Below are positions 16,415-62,540 of a stretch of DNA of 64,000 nucleotides, piece by piece. Position numbers and translations under genes: made by a program. Origin of the DNA: Candidatus Aldehydirespirator sp. GTDB lineage: Bacteria > Actinomycetota > Acidimicrobiia > Acidimicrobiales > Aldehydirespiratoraceae. The stretch covers positions 104,992 to 168,991 of the forward strand of contig OZ242020.1 of assembly GCA_965204875.1 (NCBI GenBank). The letters are read 5' to 3'. The stretch's first letter is position 1. Every line of letters begins with the position of its first letter. The notes beneath the pieces were generated by a model that had not been told where the DNA came from, made no database searches, and was given only the letters and a program-made list of their open reading frames with translations.

Positions 16415-16498
16415 GCGCCGCCACCGCTAGTCGCCCCCCGACACGCCTGCGCAGATCAGACACGCGCGCCTGCCCCAACCCTCGTAGCGCCGCCACCG

Positions 16499-17554
16499 CT
16501 AGTCGCCCTCCAGCACGCACACCAGGTTCTGCTGCAGGCAGGGCCCCGAGGTGGCGTGCGCGACGGCGCGGTCGCCCTCCCCGCGGGAGATCCGCGACGC
16601 GGCCTCACCGATGCGGATCAGCCCGGAGGCCATCATCGTGTGCGCGGCGAGCGCCCCGCCGGAGGGGTTGACCGCGGTCGTCTCCTCGTCGATGCCCAGC
16701 GCCCGGGTGAGCAGATGCTCCGAGGTGGTGTAGGGCGCGTGCAGTTCGGCGATATCCAGCTTGTCGGCGTTGACGCCGGCGTGCTGCGCGGCCAGCCGTG
16801 CCGACATCGACGAGGTGAGATCGCGGGCGCCGAGAGTGTGGGCATCGCTGCGGTGGTCGAAACCGCGTATCCATGCCGGTCTCTCACAGAGTTCTGCGGC
16901 CCGGTCGCCGGCGGCCAGCACGATGGCGCAGCCGCCGTCGGCGGAGGCCGGCAGGTCCGAGGGGCGCAGCGGATCGACGGCAAACTCCTCGGCGAGGATC
17001 TCATCCACGGTCTTGGGCTCGGCCCGCACCGCCTGGGGGTTGGAGGCGGCATGGGCGCGGCTGCGCGAGGCGATCTCGGCCAGACGCCGCTGACTGACGT
17101 GCCCGCCCTCGAGCTGCAGGCGCGCCGCGAGGGCCTCCACGGCGTGGCTGTCCGGCCAGAGCGGGCACACGTAGTAGGGATCCATCTGGGTGGCGAGAAC
17201 GTCGCGCAGCGAGCCGGGCGACGTCTTGCCGTAGCCGTACACCAGGGCCGTGTCGATGCCGCCGCACTGGATCTTGACCCATGCCTCATACAGCGCCCAG
17301 GCGCCGTCCTGCTCGACATGGCTCTCGCTGATGGGGGGCACCGGACCCGTGCCGTCGATGGTCATGACGAAGGAGAACGCCTGCCCGGCCAGGAAGTCCG
17401 ACGAGCCCGAGCAGGTGAAACCGATGTCAGCCTGGGTGAGGCCGACGTCGGTCTTGGCCCGCTCCATGAGCGGCACCATGAACTCGACCTCGGACTCGCC
17501 GGGGATCGAGGCCTCCTGGCGCTGCGCGAACGAGACGACCGCCACGTCGATCAT
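16499..17554 (-). CDS. Thiolase-like protein, second subunit
   Basis: Thiolase-fold similarity (NPSGGALAAHTMMASGL). It is shorter than its partner and lacks an obvious N-terminal active-site Cys context. Confidence 0.7.
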   Translation of the reverse strand: MIDVAVVSFAQRQEASIPGESEVEFMVPLMERAKTDVGLTQADIGFTCSGSSDFLAGQAFSFVMTIDGTGPVPPISESHVEQDGAWALYEAWVKIQCGGIDTALVYGYGKTSPGSLRDVLATQMDPYYVCPLWPDSHAVEALAARLQLEGGHVSQRRLAEIASRSRAHAASNPQAVRAEPKTVDEILAEEFAVDPLRPSDLPASADGGCAIVLAAGDRAAELCERPAWIRGFDHRSDAHTLGARDLTSSMSARLAAQHAGVNADKLDIAELHAPYTTSEHLLTRALGIDEETTAVNPSGGALAAHTMMASGLIRIGEAASRISRGEGDRAVAHATSGPCLQQNLVCVLEGD

Positions 17555-17699
17555 CCCGGCCCGGACCTCCTCTCGGGCTCAAGTGTGCCGCTCATATCGA
17601 TCACGTCGGCCCGGCCCTCCAGTTCAAGTGCGCATCTCATATCGATCACGTCGGCCCGGCCCTCCCCTCGGACTCAAGCGTGCAGCTCACGTCGATCAC
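17547..17699 (-). repeat. Three tandem units of 45-50 bp at the DUF35/thiolase junction
   Basis: The core tcgatca(c/t) recurs at 17548, 17597, 17642 and 17692. Each unit starts with GTGATCGA and ends with GGCCGGGCCGxx on the coding strand. Confidence 0.9.
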
Positions 17700-18271
17700 G
17701 GCGCCGCGGCCCGGCCGATGCGCTCGTAGTCGTCGATCCGCTCGTCCGGCTCGCCCGTGGGCTCCCAGCCGCTTATGTTGGCCGCCGACGTCTCAAGCTC
17801 GTCGTCGGGCCTCCACACGGCCCTGACGCGCATGCCGATGCGCACCTGCTCGGGCGCGATGTTGACCACCAGGCCCATGAAGCCCACGGAGGCGCCGTCG
17901 AGCACGATCCAGGCGCTGCAGTAGGGCGGCTTGAGGTCGGGCCGGCGCTCGATGGGGACGCGGGTCACGTTGAACGACTCGACATAGCCGACGTCGGGCA
18001 GCTCCACCACCTCGTGCGTCGCCGTGCCAGCGAGCGGGCTCACGCCGCGGGGCGGGACGAACACCTGGCCGGTCACTGCGCAACGCTCGCCGAGGATCCG
18101 CTTTTGGGCCATAGCCCGCAGGTAGCGCGACAGCGCCCGGCCCGGTGTGTAGGTATAGGTGAGCCGCAGCGGGGTGCAGACGCTGGACACGAGATCCTCG
18201 GCGGCGAGGGACTCCGGCAGCGTGACCTTCGAGGACAGCGCGGCGGGAGGCGCCAGCGGATCCGGCGCCAT
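17696..18271 (-). CDS. DUF35 OB-fold / Zn-ribbon protein
   Basis: Its size and its position next to thiolase genes fit. The C-terminal OB-fold-like segment (MRVRAVWRPDD) is typical of DUF35 partners of SCP-x thiolases. Confidence 0.65.
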   Translation of the reverse strand: MAPDPLAPPAALSSKVTLPESLAAEDLVSSVCTPLRLTYTYTPGRALSRYLRAMAQKRILGERCAVTGQVFVPPRGVSPLAGTATHEVVELPDVGYVESFNVTRVPIERRPDLKPPYCSAWIVLDGASVGFMGLVVNIAPEQVRIGMRVRAVWRPDDELETSAANISGWEPTGEPDERIDDYERIGRAAAP

Positions 18272-18720
18272 CAGCAGCCGTCCTCGGGAACGGGCTCGAA
18301 GCCGGCGATGTCGGCTATGTGACCCTCACGCTCGTTGCGCCACACCGCCCGCACCCGCATGCCGGTGAACATCTCAGCACGGTCGGCGAGCACGGCGTGA
18401 AGCATCGGGGTGTCGGCGCCATCGAGTCGTATCAGTGCCCAGGCGAACGGGCGCTCGAACGGCTGCTGGGGCCGGGGATCGCCGTTCCAGGCCCAGGTGA
18501 GCACCTCCCCGCCCTGGCCGACCTCCACCATCTCGGTGAGCGGCTCGGCGTTGATCGGGTCGTACTCCAGCGGCGGGCACAGCACCGAGCCGTCGGCTCT
18601 GCGTATGCCGCAGATCACGCCAGCCCGCAGGCCGGCCAGGAACGCGCCGATCACAGGCCCCGTCGAGCGGGTGAACGGGTACTCCAGCACCAGCGGCGCC
18701 TTCAGCGCTTCGGTGGCCAT
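18271..18720 (-). CDS. DUF35 OB-fold protein (second copy)
   Basis: A paralogous pattern (GMRVRAVWRNE). It has a TGATG one-nucleotide overlap with the downstream DUF35 gene. Confidence 0.65.
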   Translation of the reverse strand: MATEALKAPLVLEYPFTRSTGPVIGAFLAGLRAGVICGIRRADGSVLCPPLEYDPINAEPLTEMVEVGQGGEVLTWAWNGDPRPQQPFERPFAWALIRLDGADTPMLHAVLADRAEMFTGMRVRAVWRNEREGHIADIAGFEPVPEDGC

Positions 18721-18814
18721 GCGCCCCCAATGCTAGAGCAACAACCACTCGCCAAGCGCGCTCGGGTCGGGGTGACAGGTTGCCTGCCAGGGTGACGGGT
18801 TGCCGGCACGCGCC

Positions 18815-18844
18815 GGGAGGCCCGGCCGTGCTGCCGGGCCTCCC
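18815..18844 (-). terminator. Perfect 12-bp stem hairpin downstream of SLH paralog 1
   Basis: GGGAGGCCCGGC, a 6-nt loop, then GCCGGGCCTCCC, about 30 nt after the stop. The same module follows all three SLH genes. Confidence 0.6.
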
Positions 18845-18873
18845 GGTCGGTATGCCGTCTTGTGCTGGTGGTG

Positions 18874-21513
18874 TTAGCCGGAGGGTTCGCTGAAGTTGAT
18901 GATGCCGACTGTGGCGGGTGTCTGGTCCCGGTCATCATCGGCGCCGGGGGCGTTGTCCCGCAAGCGGATCAGGAACAGGACACTGCTCTTGTCGCCCGTC
19001 TCAGTCTCGTCGGTGTCGTTCATCCAGGTTGAGAAGGTGAGACTGCCGTCCGCGCCGGTGTGGCGGGTGTGGCGGTACTGGTCCCAGTTGGGAGAAGACT
19101 GGACGGCTGAGGGCCAAACTTGGAAATCGTTTGACCCCCCCTCCCTCTTAACCCTGTTCGCGTGTTTCTTGCCGGGTTCGGGGAAGTAGATGCGTTGGAG
19201 CTCAAACGTGGCGCGGCTGGTGCCGTCGGCGCCGGCTGTGGTGTCAGAGTTGCCTGCTCTGAGTTGCACCGTGATGGCCACTTCGTCACCGTAATCGGCC
19301 TCAACGGGGGCGTTCTTGTTCTTTTTTGTGTCATCCCCCTTCTTGAACGACTTCTGCAGATCCGCGCCCTCCGACTTCACGGTGATGCTGTCAGCAGCCG
19401 TTCCAGAGGGAACGGTCACGGTCGGCGCGGACCCAGAAGTGATGCGGTCGCCCTCTGACACATGCACGTAGAACACATGCAACCGCTTGTTGTCCAGCAC
19501 CTTCCTGGTGTCCAGGTTGATGATCGCCGTAGAGGCCGGACCGTTGAACTCCTCGAGCACGCGGATCACGATCGTCTTCTTATCACCGGCAGTGCTCGGG
19601 TTCGGGTCCGCCGGCGCAGTGACAGGGAACGAGACCATGCCCGTACCGTCGGTCTTCAGCGTATATTCAGCATCGATATCATAATCACTAACGGTCTCGC
19701 ATTCAGCATCACCACATTGAGGATCGAGTCGGGTATAGCCGATGTACTCGGTGACCTCATGCATCTTATTCCGACGGGGACTATAACGCATCGCGGTAGC
19801 ATGTCCATCCACATCAAATTGCCAGGAATGCAGATTGACAGGGCTGGCACCGTCGACACCGAACGCGGCGCGCTTCAGCTTGTCACCGTCGTTCTCGTCG
19901 GTGTGCAACAACTGCACCGTGAACTGCGACCAATCACCGAACTTCATCTCAAAATAATGGGCACTCTCGCTGTCCGTAGCCTTCGTGTCCGCAACCTTGT
20001 CATCATCAGCCGTAATACGCAACGACTCCGCCGCCACCTGACTCAACGGCAAAGTCGTGGTCGTGGTAGTCGTAGTGGTCGTAGTCGTGGTAGTCGTAGT
20101 CGTCGTCGTGGTAGTCGTAGTCGTCGTGGTAGCCGGGGTGGTAGTCGTAGTCGTAGTAGTCGTGGTAGCCGGGGTGGTAGTCGTAGTAGTGGTAGCCGGG
20201 GTGGTAGTCGTGGCAGTCGTAGTAGTTGTCGCGACCGGGGCCGAACCACCACCGCCACCGCCTGCAGGGGCGGCGGGAACAACCGCGGCCGCGGCCGGCA
20301 CCGTGACAGCATCAGGATCACCGGCGATGCGCAACTCGAAACCATTCACCTCGCCGTTGTAACGGGTGCCGCGGTCGCCGGTCCAGACCCACACCGTCAC
20401 ACCCCGACCAATGGTCGACGCGCTCAACTCGTCCAGTTTGACATCGCCGTCGGCGCCGGTCACCGGGTCACGCGCATCGATCGCGCACGCCGTGGAGGTG
20501 CGGTTAACGCTGCGCACGAGAGCGTTGCACCCGCCCCGCAGATCAAACGCCCGATAGCGGCGCTGCGAACTCACATAGAACCCATCCACCGGCGCCCCCG
20601 ACACCGGCCTGAACGTCGCGTCGCGCACCGACACCACCACCACACCACCGTCGGCCTGCGCCGTCACACCCGCCGGACGCACCCCCGTGTGCGCCAGCGT
20701 GCGCTTGATGAACGACGCCATATTTTTGCGCGGCACCGGACCCTCAGGATCAAACCTCCTCGCATCCCCGGCGCTGCCCGTCGTGATACCAAGCTCATAG
20801 GCGTAACTCGCCGCAACACGCGCATCCCCCGCAGGCACATCTGCGAAATGATCCAGCGTCCCACCCGAACCCAGGATCAGCTCACCCGCCATCGCGCCGT
20901 CCTGATGGAACAGGCCGGGGCTGGCATGGCGCAGGAACCCGATCAGAGCCACCGCCATCTCGGCCCGCGTGATGCTCGCATCGGGCCTGAACGCCATCCC
21001 CGAGCCGGCCAAAATGTCGTTGCGAGCCAGCGCCAGGATCGCGTTGCGGCGCTCCTCGTCGAGATCGGCGACATCGTTGAAGTCGGCGGCGCCCGAGCCG
21101 CCTGTCAGATCCACCCCGGCGACCCCAGCAGCCCTGTGCAAGAACAACGCCATCTGCGAACGCGACACCTCAGACCCGGCATCGAACCGCTCGGCCGTCC
21201 TGCCCCTGGTGATCCCGTAATACGCGATGCAGTTGATCGCATCCTCAGCAACCAACCCCTCGACATCCACAAACCCAGCATCCTCCGACGCGTCACCAAA
21301 ACACGCAGAAAACACCGGCAACGCATCAGCCTCCGCGCGGTCGTCCCCCACAGGCGCAGCCCCGACCGGCGCAGCCACCACAACCCCACCAACCAGACCA
21401 GCCACCAACAACACACACCACAACAAACCACCACCACGACACCGGCGGCGGCGGCCGGCTACAACATCAGCAGCCCCCCCCCCCCGGGGCGAAGTACGAA
21501 CCATCAGAGACAT
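18874..21513 (-). CDS. SLH-domain surface (S-layer-like) protein with poly-Thr linker, paralog 1
   Basis: The conserved start MSLMV lies behind GGAGAGG. It is followed by an Arg-rich n-region and a hydrophobic signal, then three SLH-like repeats (FVDVEGLVAEDAINCIAYYGITRG..F.., FNDVADLDEERRNAILALARNDILAG..FRPDASITRAEMAV, and others). A poly-Thr/Pro/Ala linker of about 60 aa, a variable middle and a conserved C-terminus complete the protein. Confidence 0.8.
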   Translation of the reverse strand: MSLMVRTSPRGGGAADVVAGRRRRCRGGGLLWCVLLVAGLVGGVVVAAPVGAAPVGDDRAEADALPVFSACFGDASEDAGFVDVEGLVAEDAINCIAYYGITRGRTAERFDAGSEVSRSQMALFLHRAAGVAGVDLTGGSGAADFNDVADLDEERRNAILALARNDILAGSGMAFRPDASITRAEMAVALIGFLRHASPGLFHQDGAMAGELILGSGGTLDHFADVPAGDARVAASYAYELGITTGSAGDARRFDPEGPVPRKNMASFIKRTLAHTGVRPAGVTAQADGGVVVVSVRDATFRPVSGAPVDGFYVSSQRRYRAFDLRGGCNALVRSVNRTSTACAIDARDPVTGADGDVKLDELSASTIGRGVTVWVWTGDRGTRYNGEVNGFELRIAGDPDAVTVPAAAAVVPAAPAGGGGGGSAPVATTTTTATTTTPATTTTTTTPATTTTTTTTTTPATTTTTTTTTTTTTTTTTTTTTTTTTTLPLSQVAAESLRITADDDKVADTKATDSESAHYFEMKFGDWSQFTVQLLHTDENDGDKLKRAAFGVDGASPVNLHSWQFDVDGHATAMRYSPRRNKMHEVTEYIGYTRLDPQCGDAECETVSDYDIDAEYTLKTDGTGMVSFPVTAPADPNPSTAGDKKTIVIRVLEEFNGPASTAIINLDTRKVLDNKRLHVFYVHVSEGDRITSGSAPTVTVPSGTAADSITVKSEGADLQKSFKKGDDTKKNKNAPVEADYGDEVAITVQLRAGNSDTTAGADGTSRATFELQRIYFPEPGKKHANRVKREGGSNDFQVWPSAVQSSPNWDQYRHTRHTGADGSLTFSTWMNDTDETETGDKSSVLFLIRLRDNAPGADDDRDQTPATVGIINFSEPSG

Positions 21514-21700
21514 CAGCCTCTCCTCTCGAACACCGGCGGAACCCCGCCGACCCGAATCGACCGGCACGACCCTAACACCACCCGGCCGGCCACAAGCCAA
21601 CCCCGGCAGCACCAGCGCCGTGCCACCCACCAACATACCCCCCCCCCCCCCCCGCAACGCAACGCAACCACAACTCCTCAAGACCTTGAAGGGCCGGCAA
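21514..21700 (-). promoter_or_regulatory. Conserved leader/promoter module of SLH paralog 1, containing a poly-G tract
   Basis: About 170 nt are conserved upstream of all three SLH genes. The module includes a run of about 16 C on the plus strand (21638..21653) abutting aacata (TATGTT on the coding strand), and a GGCGG-GGTT-CCGCC hairpin just before the RBS. Confidence 0.5.
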
Positions 21701-21780
21701 GCGGAGCGGTGACCTCATCCAAGCGCCTAGCCGGAAGGGAGGGGAAGCAAGTCGGGCGAGCCTAGGCTGCCGGCACGCGC

Positions 21781-21810
21781 GGGAGGCCCGGCTGTGTTGC
21801 CGGGCCTCCC
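21781..21810 (-). terminator. Hairpin downstream of SLH paralog 2
   Basis: It has the same GGGAGGCCCGGC / GCCGGGCCTCCC stem as the hairpin at 18815. Confidence 0.6.
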
Positions 21811-21837
21811 GGTCGGTATGCCGTCTCGTGCTGGTGG

Positions 21838-24381
21838 TTAGCCGGAGGGTTCGCTGAGCCTCACGATGCCGCTCGTGACCGGAGTGTTGTTGAGGCTGTT
21901 GGCGGCGTTGGGAGCGTTGGTGCTTGAGCGGATCAGGAACACGACACTGCCTGTGTCACCGGCGGCGGTGTTGGGGTCGTCCATCCAAACCGAGAAGGTG
22001 AGACTGCCGTCAGCGCCAGTGTAACGGGTTCGCCGCCACTGATGCCAATCAGTGGACTGCTGGATAGACTCGGGTCTAACCTCCAAATTGCTTCCTCCAC
22101 TCCTTTTGATCCGATTCACGTGACCGGCCGACGGAAAGTAGCCGCGGTGAATATTGAACGCAGCGCGGCTCGTGCCATCCGCTCCAACGGTGGTGTCTGC
22201 ACCGTCAGCGTCCTTGAGTTGAACCGTGACAGTCACCTCATCACCATAATCGGCCTCCACGAACACCTTGCTGCTGTTACCGGACGTGAACGACTTGTCC
22301 GTCTTCGCACCCTTGGACGTCACAGTGATGCTCGCGGCCGCCTCGCCCGCGGGAACTGTCGTGGTCACCGCAGAGCCAGAAGTCGTACGAGCCCCCTCCG
22401 TCACAAGCACAACAACCACATGCAACCGCTTGTTCGGCAGACCCGTGAACGCGGGAGAAGCCGGACCGTTGACCTCCTCGACAATATGGAGCACCAGCGT
22501 AGCCCTGTCACCCGCAGCGCTTGGGTTCGGATCCGCCGGCGCTGTAACAGCGAACGAAGCCATCCCCGTGCCATCGGTCTTCAGAGTATGCTGAGCAACG
22601 TTATTCGGAGTTTCAGCGCAGGGGTCGCCGCCCCGAAAACCATCCACATAAGCATGGTCATTAGCGACAACTTTAGAAACAGCCTCAGAAATGCTGGTAC
22701 TACACGGAGAAAGGCCAACTCCACGACCCGTCCCGTTGACCTGCCGAACATCGACCAGCACCGGGTTCGTGCCGTCCACACCGAACGCGGCGCGCTTCAC
22801 CCTGTCACCATCGTTCTCATCGGTGTACAACAACTGCACCGTGAACTGCGACCAATCACCGAACTTCATCGCATAATAGGAAACCTTATTTTGATCAATG
22901 AGCCTGGAACCCGCAACAGTCTCATCATCAGGCGTGATGCTCAACGACTCCGCCGCCACCTGACCCAACGGCATAGTCGTAGTAGTCGTCGTCGTCGTCG
23001 TGGTGGTAGTGGTCGTAGTCGTCGTCGTCGTAGTCGTCGTCGTCGTAGTCGTCGTAGCAGTGGGCGTAGTCGTAGTCGTGGTGGTGGTGGTTGCCGGGGC
23101 GGAACCACCGCCGCCGCCTGCAGGAGCGGCGGGAACAACCGCGGTCGCGGCCGGCACCGTGACAGCCCCAGCCTCCCCAGCGATGCGCAACTCGAAACCG
23201 TCCACACTGCTGTCGTTGTAAGAATCGCCGCGGTCGCCGGACCACACCCACACCGTCACACCACGACCAATCGTCGCAGCGGTCAACTCGTCCAGCCTCA
23301 CATCACCGCCGGCACCGGTCACAGGATCACGCGCGTCGATCGCGCACACCGTCGAAGTGCGGTTCACGCTTCTGACGATCGCGTTGCACCCGCCCCGCAG
23401 ATCAAACGCCCGATAGCGGCGCTGCGAACTCACATAGAACCCATCAACCAACGCACCGGCCACCGGCGCGAACACCGCGTCACGCACCGACACAACCACC
23501 GTGTTGCCGTCAGACTGCGCCGTCACCCCCGCCGGGCGCACCTTCGTGTGCGCCAGCGTGCGCGTGATGAACGACGCCATATTCTTGCGCAGAACGGGAT
23601 CACCAGGCGAGAACAGGCTCGCGCCCGCCGCGCTGCCCCTGGTGATACCAAGCTCATACGCGTAGGAGACCGCCGTGTCCACACCCTCAGGCAGACCGCG
23701 ACGCGCGTCAGCGAAATGATCCAGCGTCGCACCCGAACCCAGGATCAGCTCACCGGCCATAGCGCCGCTCCGATGGAACAGTCCGGGGCTGGCATGGCGC
23801 AGGAACCCGACCAGTGCCACCGCCATCTCGGCCCGCGTGATGCTCGCATCGGGCCTGAACGCCATCCCCGACCCGGCCAAGATGTCATTGCGGGCCAACG
23901 CCATGATCGCGTTGCGGCGCTCCTCGTCCAAATCCGCGATGTCAGCGAAGTCGGCGGCACCCGAGCCGCCTGTCAAATCCAACCCCGCCATCCCAGCAGC
24001 CCTGTGCAAGAACAGCGCCATCTGCGAACGCGTCACCTCAGACCCGGCATCGAACCGCTCAACCGTCCTGCCCCTGGTGATCCCATAGTACGCCAGGCAG
24101 TTGATCGCAGCCTCAGCAACCAACCCCTCAGTGTCCACGAACCCCGCGTCACGCGTGGCATCACCCACACACGCCGAAAACACCGGCAACGCATCGGCCT
24201 CCGCGCCGCTGCTGCCCACAGGCGCAGCCCCAACCGGCGCAGCCACCACAACAGAACCCACCAAACCAACCACCAACAACGCAGACCACCATAAGCGAGG
24301 CTTACCCCCGCCACGGCGGCGGCCAGCTACAACATCAACCAGCCCCCCCCCCGCGGGTGAAGTACGAACCATCAGAGACAT
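21838..24381 (-). CDS. SLH-domain surface protein with poly-Thr linker, paralog 2
   Basis: The architecture and N-terminal half match paralog 1 (MSLMVRTSPAGGG...). The central region of about 200 aa has diverged. The C-terminus is conserved (...YTGADGSLTFS.WMDD...VVFLIRSSTNAP...SEPSG). Confidence 0.8.
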   Translation of the reverse strand: MSLMVRTSPAGGGLVDVVAGRRRGGGKPRLWWSALLVVGLVGSVVVAAPVGAAPVGSSGAEADALPVFSACVGDATRDAGFVDTEGLVAEAAINCLAYYGITRGRTVERFDAGSEVTRSQMALFLHRAAGMAGLDLTGGSGAADFADIADLDEERRNAIMALARNDILAGSGMAFRPDASITRAEMAVALVGFLRHASPGLFHRSGAMAGELILGSGATLDHFADARRGLPEGVDTAVSYAYELGITRGSAAGASLFSPGDPVLRKNMASFITRTLAHTKVRPAGVTAQSDGNTVVVSVRDAVFAPVAGALVDGFYVSSQRRYRAFDLRGGCNAIVRSVNRTSTVCAIDARDPVTGAGGDVRLDELTAATIGRGVTVWVWSGDRGDSYNDSSVDGFELRIAGEAGAVTVPAATAVVPAAPAGGGGGSAPATTTTTTTTTPTATTTTTTTTTTTTTTTTTTTTTTTTTTTMPLGQVAAESLSITPDDETVAGSRLIDQNKVSYYAMKFGDWSQFTVQLLYTDENDGDRVKRAAFGVDGTNPVLVDVRQVNGTGRGVGLSPCSTSISEAVSKVVANDHAYVDGFRGGDPCAETPNNVAQHTLKTDGTGMASFAVTAPADPNPSAAGDRATLVLHIVEEVNGPASPAFTGLPNKRLHVVVVLVTEGARTTSGSAVTTTVPAGEAAASITVTSKGAKTDKSFTSGNSSKVFVEADYGDEVTVTVQLKDADGADTTVGADGTSRAAFNIHRGYFPSAGHVNRIKRSGGSNLEVRPESIQQSTDWHQWRRTRYTGADGSLTFSVWMDDPNTAAGDTGSVVFLIRSSTNAPNAANSLNNTPVTSGIVRLSEPSG

Positions 24382-24560
24382 CTCAGCCTCCCCTTCTCTC
24401 GAACACCGGCAGAACCCCGCCGACCCGAATCGACCGGCACAACCCTAACACCACCCGGCCGGCCACAAGCCAACCCGGCAGCACCAGCGCTACACCAACC
24501 ACCAACATACCCCCCCCCGGGCAACGCAACCCACAACTCCACTGGGTTGGCGAAGCTCGC
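24382..24560 (-). promoter_or_regulatory. Conserved leader/promoter module of SLH paralog 2
   Basis: It is homologous to 21514..21700. Here the poly-C run is only about 9 nt (24510..24518). Confidence 0.5.
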
Positions 24561-24574
24561 CGCTGGTGCCGTGG

Positions 24575-26002
24575 TCAGGCGCCGAGCAGCAGGAGCAGGC
24601 CGATGACGGTGTAGAGGATCATCACCGCCAGCATCGGGTACTGCGAGCGTGTGGCCAGCCGCCGCGGCCAGCGCTCCACGGCCCGGTCGTGGGCGACGGC
24701 CACGCCCAGAACATGGCCTGTCGCGATCGCGGCGGTCTGCGTCCAAGCGATCGTGTCGGTGGAGACCAGCAGGTAGTCCACGCCGTAGGCGGCGGTGCCG
24801 AAGAGATTCCAGCCCCGACCGAAGGGATCCGAGGCCAGGGCGATGATCTGCTGTCCCTCCAGCAGCAGGTAGCTGAAATAGTGCGCGACCGTGTAGGCCG
24901 CCGCAATGGGAACGAGCGAACCGGCGAAGGCGCCGGCCAGTTCCCGCTCGCTGCCGCCGGTGATGGCGGCCATCACCGCGATCGCCGCCCGGTACAGCAC
25001 CAGGACCACCAACACCACGAAGGTCAGGCCCACCGTGTTGAAAGCGGTGAGCCCCCAACCCGTGCGAGTCTCGACCGCCGTCAGCCACAGCGAGCTGCGC
25101 GTGAGGCCGTCGAATGTCGTGGAGCCCAGCACGACGAGGATCAGCGCCGTCGAGCCCCGCTTGACCGGCAGCACGGCCAGGCCGGCCAGCGGCAGCCGCA
25201 TCCTCCAGGCGCCGCTCGGGTGGCGGTACAGCGGGGCGATGGCGGAGAGCTTGGTGAACAGCACGCCGAAGCCCTCGGCGTCGCGCACCCAGCCGCGCCC
25301 GAAGACCGCGGCGCCCACCATCAGCACAGCCGCATAGGCCGCCACGTAGGCGCCGAGAAACCTGGGCTCGGAAGGGTCGTGGTAGGCGAGTTCGATCCAG
25401 ACGAACACGGACAGCGCGGCGACGGCCCACCGCTGGTCGCCGGCGCCCCGGTCGGCCTCGGACACCGGGCGCCGTCTGAGGCGCGCCCAGAGCCGGGCCG
25501 ACGTGTCGGCGACCGTGGCGAAGGGGTCGAGCCCTCGCCAGACATCGCCTGCCGGCACCGACGCGACCTGCAGGCCGACCCAGAAGATGATGAAGATCGC
25601 CACCGGCGCGATGTTGACCGAAGGATTGATGTTGCCCCGGAGCCCGGCATACAGCAGCACGCCGAGGGCCAGCAGTCCCGCCGCGCGTGCGACCGGCACG
25701 AGCGCCCGGCCCGCCGTTTGCAGCGGCCCCGGAAGGTCGCGCCCGGCGGCCGCGGCCCGGAGCCTGGGACGCTCCCAGAACATGCCGAGCGCCACGAACG
25801 ACGCCACCACCACGAACGAGGCGGCCCAGGCCAGCTGCCAGGCAGGCACGGGCAGATCGAGCCGGCCGCCCACACCGTGGGCGGCAGCCCGGCCCGCGGA
25901 CGCCGGCACCATCACCGCGGCCAACGCCGGGACCGCTGCCACACGGGTCCACAGTCGCAGCCGTGGGCTACGGCGGCGAGGCTTCGACGGAGGCTGCGTC
26001 AT
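24575..26002 (-). CDS. Polytopic integral membrane protein of unknown function
   Basis: At least 10 hydrophobic segments and an N-terminal signal-like segment ending in AAAHG. I recognise no catalytic motif. Confidence 0.6.
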   Translation of the reverse strand: MTQPPSKPRRRSPRLRLWTRVAAVPALAAVMVPASAGRAAAHGVGGRLDLPVPAWQLAWAASFVVVASFVALGMFWERPRLRAAAAGRDLPGPLQTAGRALVPVARAAGLLALGVLLYAGLRGNINPSVNIAPVAIFIIFWVGLQVASVPAGDVWRGLDPFATVADTSARLWARLRRRPVSEADRGAGDQRWAVAALSVFVWIELAYHDPSEPRFLGAYVAAYAAVLMVGAAVFGRGWVRDAEGFGVLFTKLSAIAPLYRHPSGAWRMRLPLAGLAVLPVKRGSTALILVVLGSTTFDGLTRSSLWLTAVETRTGWGLTAFNTVGLTFVVLVVLVLYRAAIAVMAAITGGSERELAGAFAGSLVPIAAAYTVAHYFSYLLLEGQQIIALASDPFGRGWNLFGTAAYGVDYLLVSTDTIAWTQTAAIATGHVLGVAVAHDRAVERWPRRLATRSQYPMLAVMILYTVIGLLLLLGA

Positions 26003-26094
26003 CGCAGGGGGATGCTCGTGGAGCCCCGAACGGCAGGGACTTGCGGGGCGGCTCCGAGCCGAGGCGCGCGCTCACTGCGGACGCAGGCTAACGG

Positions 26095-26168
26095 TGGGCG
26101 ATACTGGACTTGAACCAGTGGCCTCTGCCGTGTGAAGGCAGCGCTCTAGCCGTCTGAGCTAATCGCCC
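26095..26168 (-). tRNA. tRNA-Val (anticodon CAC)
   Basis: The reverse complement GGGCGATTAGCTCAG...CTGCC-TTCACAC-GGCAG...GGTTCAAGTCC...ATCGCCCA folds as a cloverleaf. CCA is not encoded. Confidence 0.85.
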
Positions 26169-26197
26169 GCGACCGGTGAGACTACCACCGGCCCGAG

Positions 26198-27220
26198 TCA
26201 CATCGCTGCGACTCGAAGGGCCCGCTCCATCACATGGCGGCTGCCGAGCAGTCGGCGCAGCTCGTTCTCCAGGCCGGCTATCGGGTACAGGTTCTGCGGC
26301 GCGCGGGCGTCCTTGTGAGGCTGGCTGGCGTAGCGCGGCAGCAGTGCCGACACAGCGTCGGCGCGGCACACCGCGTCCGCGAGCGCACTCGGCGACGCCA
26401 TCTCGCAGCGCACGATGCCCGACCATGGATGCGCCGCGACAGCCGGCAGGCGCAGGTACCAAGACCAGCGAGCGAAGCCCGAGCCGCCGATGAAGAACAG
26501 CGGGGTCCGCTGGCCGGCCCGCAGCGTCGAGATCACGCGCTGCTCGCGGTCCGGCAGGTACTGGACGTGCTGGGTCTTCACGTACCCGACGCCGGCCGGT
26601 GCGCCGCGGCCCCGGATCGGCCCGTCGAAGACCACCAGTTCCGCTCCCTCCGGCGGGATGATCTGCGCAGCGGTTGGATCGAGCACCGCATCGCCTTCAT
26701 CCGTTCCCTCCGGCGGGACGATCCGCGTCTCCAGCGCGGTCATCTGGTCATGGATCGCCCGGTAGAGGTCGTCGGGCCCGTCGGCCGCGCAGGGAACCAG
26801 CTCGTAGGTGCCGTGGCGGGTGGCGATGGGGACGGTGGCATGGGACGCCCTGGCATAGAGCGCCCGGAACACCCTCGACCCCACCACCCGAGCCGCGTCC
26901 GGGTCACAGCGGACCGCACCGGCGGCGACCGACGCGCAGACGCCGGGGCGGACCCCGTCCCCGTCGGTGATCCAGATGCGGGCGTCTATGCGCCGCACGC
27001 CGTCCACGAACACGACGGACTCCACAGGCTCAGCGTGAGGCGCGGGGTCGACCGCCGACCACCGGCCCTCGGCGCGCTCGGAGTACAGGACGACATCGCC
27101 GGTCGCCTCCTCAAGGTGCTCCGAGTCGGCGGCCAAGCCGTACTCGGGCGCCCAGCTCTCAACCGTGAACCTCAACCGCGCCTCCGGATCACGCGTGCCA
27201 CCCTCTCGCAGCGCAGGCAC
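26198..27220 (-). CDS. nurA: NurA-like nuclease (putative)
   Basis: The protein is 340 aa and sits last in the herA-sbcD-sbcC operon, as nurA does in archaea. It has an N-terminal VFVDGVRRID segment that resembles the catalytic Asp motif of NurA. The assignment rests mainly on context. Confidence 0.5.
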   Translation of the reverse strand: MPALREGGTRDPEARLRFTVESWAPEYGLAADSEHLEEATGDVVLYSERAEGRWSAVDPAPHAEPVESVVFVDGVRRIDARIWITDGDGVRPGVCASVAAGAVRCDPDAARVVGSRVFRALYARASHATVPIATRHGTYELVPCAADGPDDLYRAIHDQMTALETRIVPPEGTDEGDAVLDPTAAQIIPPEGAELVVFDGPIRGRGAPAGVGYVKTQHVQYLPDREQRVISTLRAGQRTPLFFIGGSGFARWSWYLRLPAVAAHPWSGIVRCEMASPSALADAVCRADAVSALLPRYASQPHKDARAPQNLYPIAGLENELRRLLGSRHVMERALRVAAM

Positions 27221-27354
27221 CCCGGCCGTTCAACGGCGGCCGGCCCTCGTGCCGCCGCTTGCGCCACCCTCCCGCAGCGCAGGCGCCCCAGTCAACCGCT
27301 GTGAACCGCACCTCCCGGGCACGGCTCGGCCAAGACACAGCCCTCTTCCCCCCA

Positions 27355-30201: not shown

Positions 30202-30349
30202 CGCGGCGCCTCCGCGCCCCCGGCACGCCTGCGAGCGAGTGCCGCAGGAACGCTCCGAACCGGGTCAGGCCTCATCGCGGCGCCTCCGCGCCCCCGGCAC
30301 GCCTGCGAGCGAGTGCCGCAGGAACGCTCCGAACCGGGTCGGGCCTCAT
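30196..30349 (-). repeat. Two tandem 74-bp units between sbcD and sbcC
   Basis: cat (ATG) recurs at 30199, 30273 and 30347. The two units are nearly identical, differing only at about 30267/30341 (a/g). Confidence 0.9.
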
Positions 30350-31527
30350 CGCAGCGTCTCTGCCCGATCGGCCTCGTGCTGTTCCTCCAGCAGCGCGACG
30401 AACAGCGACCTCACCCGCCCGTCCGCGATGTTGCGCTCGGCCAGGTACTCGTCGAAGAGCTCGACGCTGCCGCGCCCGGATCGCGCGGACCGGCGGCGCC
30501 GAGGTTGCGAGTCGTCCTCGACGCGCACGTCCACCACGCTCTCACCGCGTGCGCCCAGCGCCTCGCGCACCTCTCCGGCAAGGCCGGCCCGCCGCGGCTC
30601 CCGCACGATCACCCTCAGCCACGGGTCTCCCTCAAGCTCCGCGGCGGCCCCGGCGACCTCCGCCAGCGTGCCCGACAGCGTGCGCAGCGACCGGCCGCCC
30701 CCCAGCCGCAGCGGCGTCACCGCCGGGGGCAGGCCGGCCTCAATCTCGACCAGGTTCACCTGCTTGTGGTGCTGCTCCTCGCCGAAGTCGAGCTGCAGGG
30801 GCGACCCGCAATAGTGGATCTGGCCAGGCCCGGCGATCCTCTGGGGCCGGTGCACGTGGCCGAGTGCCACATATCCCGCCGTGGCCGGAAAGACCTGGGC
30901 GCTCAGCGCGTACTCGTCGACGAAGTGCACGGCCCGCTCGCCGCCCCCGAGCCTGCCGCCGTGCACGAAGGCGTGCGCCATCAACACGTTGACCGTGCCG
31001 GGCTCGAAGCCCCCGGCCAGCACCTCGATCAGCAGCCGCATGCGCTCGGCATAGGCCTGCGCGTGCTCGTAGGCCTCGGAGTCCATCAGGTCCCTGGCGC
31101 GGACGATGCCGCGCCGTGACACGAACGGCAGCATGGCCACGCAGGCGTCCTCGCCCCGGCGCGTCCGCAAGCGCAGCACGCCGCCGTCGCCGGGCCTGCT
31201 CGGCTCGGCAACCACATGCACGCGCCCGGCGGCCTCGAACACGGGCGCCACGGCTGCGAGCTTGCGACCGCTGTCGTGGTTGCCGGCGATCACCGCCACC
31301 TGTGCGCCTGTGCCGGCCAGGTCCAGCAGCGCCCGGTACACGATCCTCTCCGCCTCGGCCGACGGCGCGGAGGTCTCGAACACGTCGCCCGCCACGAGCA
31401 CCAGGTCTACCGAGTGCTCACCGGCCAGGCGGGCGATCTCGGCCAGCACCGCCTGATGCTCGCCGGCGCGGCTTCGCCCCCGGATCGTCTTGCCGACGTG
31501 CCAGTCGCTGGTGTGCAGCAGTTTCAT
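30346..31527 (-). CDS. sbcD: SbcD / Mre11-like nuclease
   Basis: MKLLHTSDWHVGK...LVAGDVFE...IAGNHD phosphoesterase motifs. I prefer the start at 31527 (MKLLHTSDWH) over the listed 31608. Confidence 0.9.
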   Translation of the reverse strand: MKLLHTSDWHVGKTIRGRSRAGEHQAVLAEIARLAGEHSVDLVLVAGDVFETSAPSAEAERIVYRALLDLAGTGAQVAVIAGNHDSGRKLAAVAPVFEAAGRVHVVAEPSRPGDGGVLRLRTRRGEDACVAMLPFVSRRGIVRARDLMDSEAYEHAQAYAERMRLLIEVLAGGFEPGTVNVLMAHAFVHGGRLGGGERAVHFVDEYALSAQVFPATAGYVALGHVHRPQRIAGPGQIHYCGSPLQLDFGEEQHHKQVNLVEIEAGLPPAVTPLRLGGGRSLRTLSGTLAEVAGAAAELEGDPWLRVIVREPRRAGLAGEVREALGARGESVVDVRVEDDSQPRRRRSARSGRGSVELFDEYLAERNIADGRVRSLFVALLEEQHEADRAETLR

Positions 31528-31582
31528 CGCCGCACCCGCCGCAGCCGGGCAACCACGCCGGCGCGCCGCGCCTGTTGCAGCC

Positions 31583-55655: not shown

Positions 55656-55751
55656 CTTCTCAGTACCTTCCTTTCGGAGGGATCGCGTAGGCTACAAGCG
55701 AGCACAGGCGCCGCAGCGCGCACCACAAGTTGAGGGGCGCTTGTCCAGTGG

Positions 55752-59952: not shown

Positions 59953-62355
59953 TTAGCCGGTGGGTTCGCTGAGTCTCACGATGCCGCTTGTGACCGGGGT
60001 GGTGCCGAGGTCGTTGGTGGCGTCGGGGGCGTTGGTGCTCGAGCGGATCAGGAACACAACGCTGCCCGAGTGGCCCGAGGTGCCGGTGTCGGGGTCGTCC
60101 ATCCAGGTTGAGAAGGTGAGGCTGCCGTCAGCGCCGGTGTAACGGGTCCGCCGGTACTGGTCCCAACCGCTGGACGCCTCGGCAGACCGCGGCATAATCA
60201 CAATATCGCGCGCTCCCGCCCTTTCAATCGAGTTCGCGTGACCGCCTGTCGGGAAGTAGAGACGTTGGATATTGAACGCAGCGCGGCTCGTGCCATCCAC
60301 ACCGACGGTGGTGTCACCGTCAGCGTCCTGGAGTTGCACCGTGATCGACACCTCATCACCATAATCGGCCGCCACGAACGTCGAGCTTGTGGTCCCGGAC
60401 GTGAACGACTTGTCAGTCTTGGCACCGTTGGACATCACGGTAATCTTGGTAGCCGCGTCGCCGGCGGGCACGGTCGTGGTCACCGCGGACCCAGAAGTCG
60501 TGCGCGCACCCTCCGACACATGCACAATGACCACATGCATCCGCTTGTTCGGAACAGCAGTGATCGCAGACGATGCCGGACCGTTGATCTCCTCCACAAG
60601 ATGAACTACCAGCGTGCGCCTGTCACCCGCAGTGCCCGGGGTCGGATCCGCCGGCGCCATAACAGCGAACGAAGCCATACCCGTGCTATCGGTCTTCAGA
60701 GTATGCTGAGCAACGGTAGCATCGTTTCGAGTGGAATTGAGATAGTCGTTAGCAACAACCTTCGGCGTAGCACTACTGAACTGAGAAGGGTTCTTTAGGT
60801 GAGTATCGATGTCGACCTGCCGAACATCAATCAACACAGGGTTCGTGCCGTCCACACCGAACGCGGCGCGCTTCACCTTGTCACCATCATTCTCGTCGGT
60901 GTACAACAACTGCACCGTGAACTGCGACCAGTCACCGAACTTCATCTGGTAATAGTCACCGCCACCACTAAAGGTGGCCTTGGTAGCCGCAACCTTCTCA
61001 TCATCAGGCGTGATACTCAACGACTCGGCCGCCACCTGACCCAACGGCATAGTAGTCGTAGTCGTCGTAGTGGTCGTAGTAGGCGTAGTCGTCGTCGTCG
61101 TCGTGGTCGTCGTGGCGGAACCGCCGCCGCCGCCTGCTGGGGCGGCGGGAACGACCGCGGTCGCGGCCGGCACCGTGACAGCGTCAGGATCACCGGCGAT
61201 GCGCAACTCGAACCCGTCCACACTGCTGTCGTTGTAAGAATCGCCCCGGTCGCCGGACCAGACCCACACCGTCACACCACGACCGATGGTCGCGGCGGCC
61301 AGCTCGTCCAGCTTCACATCACCATCGGCGCCGGTGACCGGATCACGCGCGTCGACCGCGCACGCCGTCGAGGTGCGATTCACGCTCCGCACGAGCGCGT
61401 TGCACCCGCCCCGCAGATCAAACGCCCGATAGCGGCGCTGCGTGCTCACATAGAACCCGTCAACCGGCGCACCAGCCACCGGCATGAACATTGCGTCGCG
61501 CACCGACACCACCACCGTGTTGCCATCGGCCTGCGCGGTCACGCCAGCGGGGCGCACACCCGTGTGCGCCAACCAGCGCGACACGAACGATGCCAGGTTC
61601 TTGCGCAGCACACGACCCTCAGGATCAAACTTGCTCCCATCGCTGGCGCTGCCCGTCGTCAACCCCAACTCGAACCCATAACTCGCCGCCGTGCCCACAC
61701 GTCCCGAACGCGCGTCGCTGAAATGATCCAGGCTGCCCTCGCCGAGCTTCAACGCGCCCGACGCGTCGAACAGGCCCGGGCTCGCCAACCGCAACAACCC
61801 CACAAGCGCCGCCACCGTCTCAGCACGCGTCACCGGCACACCGGACATGGCACCGTCACCCGAGAGCACACCGGCGGCGGCCAACGCCGCCACAGCACGC
61901 CGGGTCTCATTGTCCATCGCGGCGTCGCCATCCATCCCGGCGTCATCTTCGGCGTCACCGAACTCAACCCCCGCGAGCACCGCCGCCCGATACAACACCA
62001 ACGCCAACTCCGCACGCGACACCACCGCACCGGCACCGAACCGGTCCTCAGACGCGCTCACGGCGACCCCGTAATACGCCAGACAGTTCACCGCGTCCTC
62101 AGCGCCGATACCCGCAACATCCACAAACCCCGCATCCCCCAACGCGTCACCAAAACACGCAGAAAACACCGGCAACACATCAGCCTCCGCGCCGCTGCCG
62201 CCCACAGGCGCGGCCCCAGCAGGAGCCGCTGCCACAACCCCACCAACCAAACCAACCACCAACAACACACACCACAACAAACCACCACCACCACCACGGC
62301 GGCGGCCGGCTACAACATCAGCCAGCCCCCCCCCCGCGGCGAGAACCACTACCAA
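59953..62355 (-). CDS. SLH-domain surface protein with a shorter poly-Thr linker, paralog 3; the conserved start is apparently out of frame
   Basis: The architecture matches paralogs 1 and 2. The ORF track starts this ORF at a TTG (MVVVLAAGGG...). The conserved RBS and ATG-TCT-CTG-ATG lie a few nt upstream in a different frame. Confidence 0.7.
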   Translation of the reverse strand: MVVVLAAGGGLADVVAGRRRGGGGGLLWCVLLVVGLVGGVVAAAPAGAAPVGGSGAEADVLPVFSACFGDALGDAGFVDVAGIGAEDAVNCLAYYGVAVSASEDRFGAGAVVSRAELALVLYRAAVLAGVEFGDAEDDAGMDGDAAMDNETRRAVAALAAAGVLSGDGAMSGVPVTRAETVAALVGLLRLASPGLFDASGALKLGEGSLDHFSDARSGRVGTAASYGFELGLTTGSASDGSKFDPEGRVLRKNLASFVSRWLAHTGVRPAGVTAQADGNTVVVSVRDAMFMPVAGAPVDGFYVSTQRRYRAFDLRGGCNALVRSVNRTSTACAVDARDPVTGADGDVKLDELAAATIGRGVTVWVWSGDRGDSYNDSSVDGFELRIAGDPDAVTVPAATAVVPAAPAGGGGGSATTTTTTTTTTPTTTTTTTTTTMPLGQVAAESLSITPDDEKVAATKATFSGGGDYYQMKFGDWSQFTVQLLYTDENDGDKVKRAAFGVDGTNPVLIDVRQVDIDTHLKNPSQFSSATPKVVANDYLNSTRNDATVAQHTLKTDSTGMASFAVMAPADPTPGTAGDRRTLVVHLVEEINGPASSAITAVPNKRMHVVIVHVSEGARTTSGSAVTTTVPAGDAATKITVMSNGAKTDKSFTSGTTSSTFVAADYGDEVSITVQLQDADGDTTVGVDGTSRAAFNIQRLYFPTGGHANSIERAGARDIVIMPRSAEASSGWDQYRRTRYTGADGSLTFSTWMDDPDTGTSGHSGSVVFLIRSSTNAPDATNDLGTTPVTSGIVRLSEPTG

Positions 62356-62540
62356 CCATCAGAGACATCTGAGCCTCCCCTTTCTCTCGAACGCCGGCAG
62401 AACCCCGCCGACCCGGCTAGACGGCACAACCCTAACACCACCGGCCGGCAACACGCCAACCCCGGCAGCACCAGAGCCACACCACCCACCAACATACCCA
62501 AGCCGCCCCCCGGCACGCAACAACCACAAACCCTCAAGGC
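62356..62540 (-). promoter_or_regulatory. Conserved leader/promoter module of SLH paralog 3
   Basis: It is homologous to the other two leaders. Here the poly-C run next to aacata is interrupted (ccc aag ccg cccccc). Confidence 0.45.

What the first reader, a model, noticed from the sequence alone, without database searches (positions are those of the whole stretch)
21474..21485. Homopolymeric G tract inside codons 9-13 of every SLH paralog
On the coding strand, paralog 1 reads CCC CGG GGG GGG GGG GCT, a run of 12 G at 21474..21485. Paralog 2 reads GCG GGG GGG GGG CTG, a run of 10 G at 24343..24352. Paralog 3 has a run of 9-10 G near 62326..62335. All three sit at the same place, just after MSLMV..., and encode GGG. 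Runs this long are prone to slipped-strand mispairing. Their length differs between copies while the flanks are conserved. This is the classic layout of translational phase-variation switches in Neisseria and Haemophilus contingency loci, and of the glpK C-tract in M. tuberculosis.
Basis: partly seen in the sequence, partly recalled or inferred. Interest (0 to 1): 0.75.

Follow-up and report, generated by a model that had tools for sequence, protein, structure and literature searches.

The report
Poly-G on/off switches in surface-protein genes
Three paralogous cell-surface (SLH-domain) genes of an uncultured Acidimicrobiales-like bacterium each carry a long run of G just after the start codon, and two carry a second run upstream, and one gene is already frame-shifted off; this is a well-known kind of random gene switch, seen here in a lineage where I found no report of it.

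Summary
On the minus (coding) strand there are runs of 12 G (21474-21485), 10 G (24343-24352) and 10 G (62326-62335), 28-33 nt after a conserved Shine-Dalgarno/ATG start of three SLH paralogs.

- Paralog 3 is out of frame. The ATG frame stops after 16 codons, and G9 or G12 restores 804-805 aa.
- Paralogs 1 and 2 have a second tract (G16, G9) about 140 nt upstream, abutting a TAnnnT -10-like hexamer.
- All five runs of 9 or more in the 64 kb belong to these genes.

An independent metagenome contig matches 13.8 kb of the window except for +1 G in both tracts of paralog 1, which switches it OFF. In related Acidimicrobiales MAGs the same layout recurs: of 18 tract-bearing genes, 8 are in frame and 10 are out. 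Every OFF gene regains a long ORF (650 to 1,400 codons, or open to the locus end) with a 1-2 base change.

Best explanation: slipped-strand contingency loci giving translational ON/OFF, probably with promoter tuning. Switching itself was not observed, because no reads were available. HiFi homopolymer error and slow, clade-level variation remain as rivals. This is a new member of a known kind.

The parts
18874..21513 (-). Paralog P1 CDS (879 aa from the conserved ATG at 21513). It has an N-terminal signal-like peptide, an SLH region, a poly-Thr linker and a variable C-terminal half. ON at G12.
21474..21485 (-). P1 coding tract, G12, starting 28 nt after the A of the ATG. G10, G11, G13 and G14 give 14-18 aa products. 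It is G13 in ERZ26693861 ctg116199.
21519..21527 (-). P1 Shine-Dalgarno (GAGAGGAGA), 5 nt before the ATG.
   Evidence: read directly
21514..21631 (-). P1 conserved, G+T-rich leader. The predicted fold is -70 kcal/mol (z = -4.8). Its last hairpin pairs the Shine-Dalgarno sequence with codons 2-3.
21632..21637 (-). TATGTT, a -10-like TAnnnT hexamer directly 3' of the upstream tract. It is conserved in all three paralogs.
   Evidence: The promoter role is inferred; the sigma-70 scan was negative.
21638..21653 (-). P1 upstream tract, G16, preceded by GTTGCGTTGCGTTGC. It is G17 in ERZ26693861 ctg116199.
21780..21811 (-). A 13-bp GC-rich hairpin 26 nt after the P2 stop codon, a likely terminator. 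If so, P1 needs its own promoter between here and 21640.
   Evidence: z = -4.8
21838..24381 (-). Paralog P2 CDS (847 aa). ON at G10.
24343..24352 (-). P2 coding tract, G10. Same length in the second assembly.
24504..24518 (-). P2 upstream tract G9 (24510-24518) plus the adjacent TATGTT (24504-24509).
59953..62368 (-). Paralog P3. The conserved SD-ATG at 62368 is out of frame with the 800-codon ORF that ends at 59953. OFF at G10; G9 gives 804 aa and G12 gives 805 aa.
62326..62335 (-). P3 coding tract, G10, starting 33 nt after the ATG. The ATG frame ends at TGA 62318-62320.
62491..62511 (-). P3 upstream element: TATGTT (62491-62496) preceded by an interrupted tract, GGGGGGCGGCTTGGG. I read this as a decayed or locked version of the upstream tract.

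Best explanation
The G runs are hypermutable simple-sequence switches (contingency loci) on a family of secreted, SLH-anchored surface proteins.

Shown in silico:
- Each gene starts at a conserved Shine-Dalgarno/ATG.
- After 28-33 nt (up to 90 nt in one relative) comes a G run of 9-16, followed by the arginine-rich and hydrophobic signal-peptide region.
- Gaining or losing one G puts the ATG frame onto a stop within 14-34 codons (up to 46 in L034 and the poly-C genes). No signal peptide or protein is then made.
- A further 1-2 base change restores a long ORF.

Inferred:
- Length changes arise by slipped-strand mispairing at replication, so each paralog flips ON and OFF independently and cells differ in which surface proteins they display.
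- The second tract about 140-190 nt upstream lies between a GTTGC motif and a TAnnnT -10-like hexamer. It most likely changes promoter geometry and so tunes or gates transcription. That would make each gene a two-level switch.
- Actinobacterial NucS mismatch repair does not correct indels (PMC8228993), which would leave such tracts unusually unstable. Whether this organism relies on NucS was not tested.
- The likely benefit is stochastic variation of the cell surface against phage or host recognition.
For: Placement is non-random.
- All five runs of 9 or more in the window are at these genes.
- Other Gly runs in the same genes avoid GGG.

Frame logic.
- P1 and P2 are ON and P3 is OFF.
- Simulated +-1 and +-2 changes toggle products between 14-19 aa and 804-880 aa.

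Difference between assemblies.
- ERZ26693861 ctg116199 equals the window over 18000-31840 except for +1 G in both P1 tracts (12->13, 16->17).
- The shorter P2 tracts (10 and 9) are unchanged.

Conservation of the layout across species.
- OZ220491.1 paralogs share the order: upstream Gn, TAnnnT, a roughly 190-nt leader, SD-ATG, Gn. Their proteins are about 50% identical to the window's.
- OZ246894.1 has a coding G14.
- L038 has a G9.

Phases.
- 8 genes are ON and 10 are OFF.
- OFF alleles sit at both +1 and -1 from ON, and none shows any other lesion in the DNA fetched.

A second gene family.
- An FN3-rich family with C-terminal SLH domains carries 5' poly-C runs of 14-19: one ON, two OFF.

Annotation echo.
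- P0006 (784 aa, starting MLPVFSAC) and P0121 (851 aa, with a signal peptide, G9) fall in the same 90% cluster.

Tract turnover.
- Interrupted or absent upstream tracts occur in P3, L010, L014 and L026.

Precedents.
- PMC4746626 and PMC2831843.
Against: - No read-level or within-population data were available, so reversibility and switching rate are unobserved.
- The one same-gene length difference comes from a contig whose name suggests 3x coverage. Both changes are in the two longest tracts, which is exactly where HiFi consensus is weakest.
- In one of the two OFF phases an in-frame GTG or TTG lies a few codons before the tract (P3, L007). Leaky expression is therefore possible, although the start is 18 nt or more from the SD.
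- The promoter role of the upstream tract is untested. The sigma-70 scan found nothing, the -35-to-TAnnnT spacings I counted are heterogeneous (14-28 nt), and no TSS data exist.
Confidence: 0.75

Rival explanations
1. Slow, evolutionary-scale variation. The tracts are real and do break frames, but they change rarely. OFF copies are then recently silenced paralogs of an expanding and decaying gene family, not reversibly switching genes.
For: - C. acnes precedent: tract lengths follow clades (PMC4746626).
- Some upstream tracts are interrupted or lost.
- The P2 tracts are identical in the two assemblies.
Against: - Ten OFF genes keep ORFs with no other lesion in the DNA fetched (eight of them span about 650 to 1,400 codons).
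- Two tracts differ between sequences that have 0 substitutions over 13.8 kb.
- Tracts of 10-19 nt are far above the lengths that are unstable in other bacteria (established knowledge).
Confidence: 0.12
2. Sequencing or assembly error. The tracts exist, but their true lengths are all in frame. The out-of-frame calls and the 12-versus-13 difference would then be long-read homopolymer miscalls.
For: - Contig names such as ctg116199_3x_l suggest low-coverage long-read metagenome assemblies (my inference).
- The two differences are +1 in the two longest tracts.
Against: - OFF calls include short tracts: G10 in P3, G11 in L012 and L026, G12 in L004.
- Meanwhile G13 and G14 tracts are in frame.
- The errors would have to go in both directions.
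- 10 of 18 genes out of frame is too many for occasional miscalls in chromosome-level MAGs.
Confidence: 0.08
3. RNA-level recoding. RNA polymerase slippage on the G run, or ribosomal frameshifting, yields in-frame product whatever the DNA length, so the tract sets expression level rather than ON/OFF.
For: Long homopolymers are known to cause transcriptional slippage (established knowledge). It would explain why OFF alleles are tolerated.
Against: - Programmed recoding sites keep one fixed frame relationship across orthologs. Here in-frame and both out-of-frame states coexist, even for the same gene.
- No frameshift-stimulating structure was sought or found downstream.
- This does not exclude slippage as a source of leakiness.
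Confidence: 0.05

Closest known systems
Cutibacterium (Propionibacterium) acnes G/C homopolymeric tracts at surface-protein genes (dermatan-sulphate adhesins)
   Same: - Actinobacterial, G/C tracts.
- Tracts lie either in the 5' coding region or upstream in the UTR or promoter.
- The genes encode surface proteins (PMC4746626).
   Different: - Here the tracts are longer (9-19).
- Both tract types occur on the same gene.
- They mark large SLH paralog families in an uncultured marine Acidimicrobiales lineage.
- In C. acnes the variation was judged slow and clade-linked.
Neisseria and Haemophilus contingency loci (e.g. the lgt genes with coding poly-G, PMC2192423; promoter-spacer tracts such as opc and porA, from my own knowledge)
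   Same: - A coding homopolymer near the 5' end gives translational ON/OFF.
- A promoter tract changes hexamer spacing.
- Many independently switching surface genes form a 'phasome'.
   Different: - Different phylum and a monoderm SLH anchor.
- Not a pathogen as far as is known.
- No MutS/MutL context is established.
- Switching has not been measured.
Listeria monocytogenes inlA 5' poly(A) tract and the general 5'-end homopolymer rule
   Same: A homopolymer a few codons after the start gives a product of about 8 aa when shifted, and it reverts at about 1000 times the point-mutation rate (PMC2831843).
   Different: That case is a single poly(A) gene. Here there is a poly-G or poly-C multigene family with an extra upstream tract.
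Mycobacterium tuberculosis glpK 7C tract
   Same: A reversible frameshift in a G/C homopolymer, in an actinobacterium that lacks indel-correcting mismatch repair.
   Different: That is a metabolic gene with a short tract in mid-gene and a drug-tolerance phenotype. It is not a surface-protein family and has no promoter tract.

Membership tests
SSR-mediated translational phase-variable (contingency) gene | A homopolymer long enough to be hypermutable (about 7-9 or more) lies inside the 5' coding region, downstream of the real start codon. | tested here: met
   G12, G10 and G10 start 28-33 nt after a conserved SD-ATG.
SSR-mediated translational phase-variable (contingency) gene | Length changes that are not multiples of 3 truncate the product early, and compensating changes restore it. 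| tested here: met
   In the simulation, +-1 and +-2 changes give 14-19 aa versus 804-880 aa. The same holds in relatives.
SSR-mediated translational phase-variable (contingency) gene | Tract length is polymorphic between strains or paralogs, in steps that are not multiples of 3. | tested here: met
   - P1 is 12 versus 13 between two assemblies.
- 8 genes are in frame and 10 are out, across the window, two related MAGs and one further contig.
SSR-mediated translational phase-variable (contingency) gene | OFF alleles carry no other inactivating lesion. | tested here: met
   In all 10 OFF genes the tract is the only lesion found. Eight regain ORFs of about 650-1,400 codons; the two poly-C genes read open to the end of the fetched locus.
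SSR-mediated translational phase-variable (contingency) gene | High-frequency, reversible switching occurs within a clonal population. | not testable with these tools
   No reads or cultures are available. Only consensus assemblies were compared.
SSR-mediated translational phase-variable (contingency) gene | The gene product is surface-exposed or interacts with the environment. | tested here: met
   - Pfam SLH domain.
- Weak match to the B. anthracis Sap SLH structure.
- N-terminal RRR plus a hydrophobic signal-like segment.
Promoter-spacer homopolymer switch (opc, porA or Bordetella fim type) | The tract lies between the -35 and -10 elements of the gene's promoter. | tested here: inconclusive
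   - The tract abuts TATGTT in the window. It lies 5-15 nt (mostly 5-9) before a TAnnnT hexamer in nine OZ220491.1 paralogs, and GTTGC or a close variant precedes it in most.
- A terminator-like hairpin after P2 implies that P1 has a promoter in this region.
- However, the sigma-70 scan found none and there are no TSS data.
Promoter-spacer homopolymer switch (opc, porA or Bordetella fim type) | Tract length varies between strains or paralogs. | tested here: met
   P1 is 16 versus 17. Paralogs range from 9 to 17, and some tracts are interrupted or absent.
Promoter-spacer homopolymer switch (opc, porA or Bordetella fim type) | Transcript level depends on tract length. | not testable with these tools
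   This needs RNA-seq or reporter assays.
Programmed transcriptional slippage or ribosomal frameshift site | A fixed out-of-frame arrangement is conserved across orthologs and paralogs. | tested here: not met
   In-frame and both out-of-frame states coexist, even for the same gene.

The most novel reading that the evidence does not exclude
Sponge-associated (inferred) Acidimicrobiales run a lineage-wide 'phasome'. At least two SLH surface-protein families would be gated gene by gene through 5' homopolymer switches, 18 or more genes across the assemblies sampled. Many of these genes would have two independent switches, a promoter tract and a coding tract, giving combinatorial and stochastic remodelling of the cell coat. 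This would be the first contingency-locus system described for SLH or S-layer-type proteins, for the class Acidimicrobiia, and for a marine invertebrate symbiont.
Probability: 0.5. Interest if true: 0.65.

Novelty: new member of a known kind. Interest (0 to 1): 0.55.

Why it matters
If the tracts switch as predicted, an uncultured, high-GC marine actinobacterial lineage varies its SLH-anchored surface coat stochastically. Its closest relatives are MAGs, one of which is named for a sponge-symbiont family.

That would bear on how such bacteria cope with phage and with host recognition, which cannot be studied in culture.

It is directly testable with sequencing reads that already exist for these MAGs.

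There is also a practical point. Automated annotation of these genomes truncates or mis-starts many of these genes, for example proteins that begin at MLPVFSAC. Their surface-protein repertoire is therefore systematically under-called.

Tried and rejected
- JGI metagenome contigs. A protein-pattern scan and a leader DNA pattern scan both returned nothing, so there is no Illumina-based comparison.
- DNA of the closest genome, a 3.05 Mb contig carrying P0001-P0008. Exact-protein look-ups failed for P0001, P0004 and P0006. Its OFF states are inferred only from truncated annotations.
- A second copy of the P3 locus, sought through its neighbour gene: not on record. The ATG-started P1 is also not on record.
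- Hypothesis that the wider 'MPQLVKKRRSGW...' SLH lineage uses a poly-A switch. The idea came from the many truncated annotated N-termini. It is rejected: the DNA reads GTG AAG AAG CGG with no homopolymer.
- The E. coli-type sigma-70 scan found no promoter at any of the three 5' regions.
- Rfam gives only four tRNAs in the window and no family at the leader.
- RNAalifold on ten OZ220491.1 leaders found 1 compensatory pair out of 56, so I make no claim of a structured RNA element.
- I counted spacing between a putative -35 (TTGCnn) and TAnnnT by hand. The values range from 14 to 28 nt and show no relation to the coding ON/OFF state, so I do not assign promoter ON/OFF states.
- Literature searches found no paper on phase variation in Acidimicrobiia, on homopolymer switches in sponge symbionts, or on slipped-strand switching of SLH proteins.
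Full report
**1. The observation**

On the + strand they are C12 at 21474-21485, C10 at 24343-24352 and C10 at 62326-62335. The minus strand carries three long paralogous ORFs:
- P1, 18874-21513
- P2, 21838-24381
- P3, 59953 to about 62368

Their only Pfam hit is the S-layer homology (SLH) domain. There is also a weak match to the SLH domain of Bacillus anthracis Sap.

Each ORF is preceded by a strong Shine-Dalgarno sequence and the conserved start ATG TCT CTG ATG GTT. The run begins 28-33 nt after the A of the ATG. It is followed by an arginine-rich and then hydrophobic signal-like segment.

The runs are not chance events:
- The whole 64 kb holds five homopolymers of 9 or more, and all five are at these genes. 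The next longest run is 7.
- G9 words occur 17 times against 1.9 expected.
- Inside the same genes, every other Gly run uses mixed GGC/GGT codons. GGG is only about 18% of Gly codons in the window.

**2.

(a) P3 is out of frame. From the conserved ATG at 62368 the reading frame hits TGA after 16 codons. G9 or G12 would give 804 or 805 aa. P1 (G12) and P2 (G10) are in frame, and any +-1 or +-2 change cuts them to 14-18 aa.

(b) P1 and P2 have a second tract about 140 nt upstream of the ATG: G16 at 21638-21653 and G9 at 24510-24518.
- Each abuts the hexamer TATGTT, which fits the TAnnnT pattern of actinobacterial -10 elements (from my own knowledge).
- Each is preceded by GTTGC.
- P3 has the same TATGTT behind an interrupted tract, GGGGGGCGGCTTGGG.

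(c) A 13-bp GC hairpin follows the P2 stop codon. P1 therefore probably has its own promoter in the 140 nt that contain the tract.

**3. Comparison with an independent assembly**

The ENA metagenome contig ERZ26693861:ctg116199_3x_l encodes exactly the P2 protein. Over window 18000-31840 (13.8 kb) it differs from the window at only two positions. Both are one extra G, in the P1 coding tract (13, out of frame, gene called as 798 aa) and in the P1 upstream tract (17). The shorter P2 tracts (10 and 9) are unchanged.

Next to this block, 138 differences are packed into window 16493-18000. The two sequences are therefore not copies of one assembly.

This result fits hypermutable tracts. It equally fits consensus error at the two longest homopolymers of a contig whose name suggests 3x coverage. 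I cannot separate the two without reads.

**4. Relatives**

Protein search shows a large family in uncultured bacteria. A scan of species-representative genomes returned:
- 31 loci in one chromosome-level MAG labelled Acidimicrobiales bacterium (OZ220491.1)
- one locus in a second Acidimicrobiales MAG (OZ246894.1)
- one locus in a Candidatus Spongiisociaceae MAG

In OZ220491.1 the subfamily with N-terminal SLH domains repeats the window's layout, at about 50% protein identity. The order is: upstream G12-15, then TAnnnT (TATGGT, TATCTT, TAGTGT, TAATGT or TATAGT), a conserved leader of about 190 nt, SD-ATG TCT CAG TTG TTT AGT..., a coding G10-16, and then CTT AGT GCT CTA G. In that last stretch both wrong frames hit TAG at once.

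Frames computed by script:

| Locus | Coding tract | State |
|---|---|---|
| L009 | G10 | ON |
| L013 | G13 | ON |
| L015 | G14 | ON |
| second gene in L014 | G13 | ON (ORF open to the locus end, 89 codons) |
| L004 | G12 | OFF |
| L007 | G15 | OFF |
| L008 | G15 | OFF |
| L012 | G11 | OFF |
| L014 | G16 | OFF |
| L026 | G11 | OFF |

Other cases:
- A second family in the same genome is FN3-rich with C-terminal SLH domains. It has poly-C after its SD-ATG: C14 ON, C16 OFF, C19 OFF.
- The OZ246894.1 gene has a coding G14 that is OFF for every candidate start.
- L038, another ERZ26693861 contig, carries a G9 ON gene of 851 aa. Its product falls in the same 90% cluster as P0006, a 784-aa protein in a 3.05 Mb genome that is annotated from MLPVFSAC. 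That is what a gene caller produces when the 5' end is frame-shifted.

In total, 18 tract-bearing genes give 8 ON and 10 OFF. The OFF alleles lie at both +1 and -1 from the nearest ON length. Each regains a long ORF with a 1-2 base change: about 650-1,400 codons in eight genes, and open to the end of the fetched locus in the two poly-C genes.

This pattern argues against two alternatives. It does not fit a one-directional calling bias. It does not fit old pseudogenes either: at this base composition, 1,000 open codons do not persist by chance (my estimate is about 0.02 stops per random codon).

A more distant lineage of the family, with proteins starting MPQLVKKRRSGW, has no homopolymer. The switch is therefore a trait of one clade, not of the protein family as a whole.

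**5. Mechanism**

Shown in silico: tract length decides whether the SD-ATG frame reaches the signal peptide.

Inferred: length changes by replication slippage, so that each paralog flips independently.

Established background:
- 5' homopolymers act as reversible inactivation switches in many prokaryotes (PMC2831843).
- G/C tracts in coding 5' ends or upstream regions mark surface-protein genes in the actinobacterium C. acnes (PMC4746626).
- The actinobacterial NucS mismatch-repair pathway cannot correct indels (PMC8228993).

Whether this organism uses NucS was not tested.

The upstream tract most likely alters promoter geometry. Evidence for this: its adjacency to TAnnnT in three window genes and nine OZ220491.1 genes, the GTTGC (or a close variant) before it in most of them, and the terminator-like hairpin upstream of P1. 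Evidence against: the E. coli-type promoter scan found nothing, my hand-counted spacings are heterogeneous, and there are no TSS data. I hold the promoter reading at roughly even odds, and the coding switch at about 0.75.

**6. Rivals**

- Slow, clade-level variation, as was concluded for C. acnes: 0.12.
- Long-read homopolymer error: 0.08. It cannot explain OFF calls at G10-G12 alongside in-frame G13-G14, nor shifts in both directions.
- RNA-level slippage or frameshifting as the real route of expression: 0.05. The frame relationship is not fixed. Such slippage may still make OFF leaky, and in one OFF phase an unassisted GTG or TTG precedes the tract.

**7. Novelty and score**

The mechanism is textbook. 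What is new is the setting:
- An uncultured Acidimicrobiales clade, with a sponge association inferred only from the relatives' record titles.
- SLH-anchored proteins.
- Unusually long G/C tracts, two per gene.
- Spread over at least two families.

Full-text searches found no report of phase variation in Acidimicrobiia, of homopolymer switches in sponge symbionts, or of slipped-strand switching of SLH proteins. I class it as a new member of a known kind, with interest 0.55.

Noticed in passing
window 21514-21631 (-), 24382-24503 (-), 62369-62490 (-); L004-L026 leaders: The 120-190 nt leader between the upstream tract and the ATG is conserved among paralogs. The P1 leader is predicted to fold strongly (-70 kcal/mol, z = -4.8). 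Its last hairpin pairs the Shine-Dalgarno sequence with codons 2-3. Ten OZ220491.1 leaders show almost no compensatory covariation (1 pair of 56), so a functional RNA structure is unproven.
   Followed up: partly
window 21334-21637 (-), 24202-24509 (-), 62189-62500 (-): On the coding strand, the leader plus the first 60 codons are about 74% G+T and only 5-7% A. TTG, GTT and GGT codons are preferred there. The SLH genes have GC3 near 0.73, against 0.85-0.95 for neighbouring genes.
   Followed up: partly
L008 about 1241-1256; L010 and L011 about 1177-1192: A perfect TGTGA-N6-TCACA palindrome (the CRP/GlxR-type consensus, from my own knowledge) sits just 5' of the upstream tract in three OZ220491.1 paralogs. 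The distance from the palindrome to TAnnnT is 22 nt where there is no tract and 25-26 nt where there is one. The tract could therefore shift the phasing of an activator site.
   Followed up: no
L021 3370-3424, L023 3103-3150, L032 3509-3564 (OZ220491.1): A second surface-protein family (FN3-rich, with C-terminal SLH domains) has poly-C tracts of 14-19 a few codons after its own SD-ATG. One gene is ON and two are OFF.
   Followed up: yes
window 16493-18000 versus L002: There are 138 differences in 1.5 kb, covering a thiolase-like ORF and its neighbours. This patch lies directly beside 13.8 kb that is identical except for the two tract indels. It looks like a recombination boundary or a hypervariable patch.
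   Followed up: partly
window 58760-59770 (-) and 62791-63801 (-): P3 is flanked by two 336-aa nucleotidyltransferase (Polbeta/NTP_transf_2) paralogs that are 77% identical. The direct-repeat spacing is 4031 nt.
   Followed up: partly
window 54132-55655 (-), next to tRNA-Val 55749-55826: A dip in GC content (0.56 against about 0.70) coincides with a gene fusing an N6/N4 DNA methylase to an HNH endonuclease, beside a tRNA. It may be an acquired element.
   Followed up: partly
P1 aa 441-487, P2 aa 431-469, P3 aa 415-435: The poly-Thr linkers differ in length between paralogs (roughly 20-45 Thr). They are written with mixed ACC/ACG/ACT codons, so they are not simple slippage-prone repeats.
   Followed up: partly
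L036 and L037 (ERZ25068633 ctg160072): In the tract-free lineage, tandem SLH paralogs are separated by a HigB-like toxin and HTH antitoxin pair. One paralog has a replaced 5' end that lacks the MPQLVKKRR start. Many family members in the database are annotated with truncated signal peptides.
   Followed up: partly
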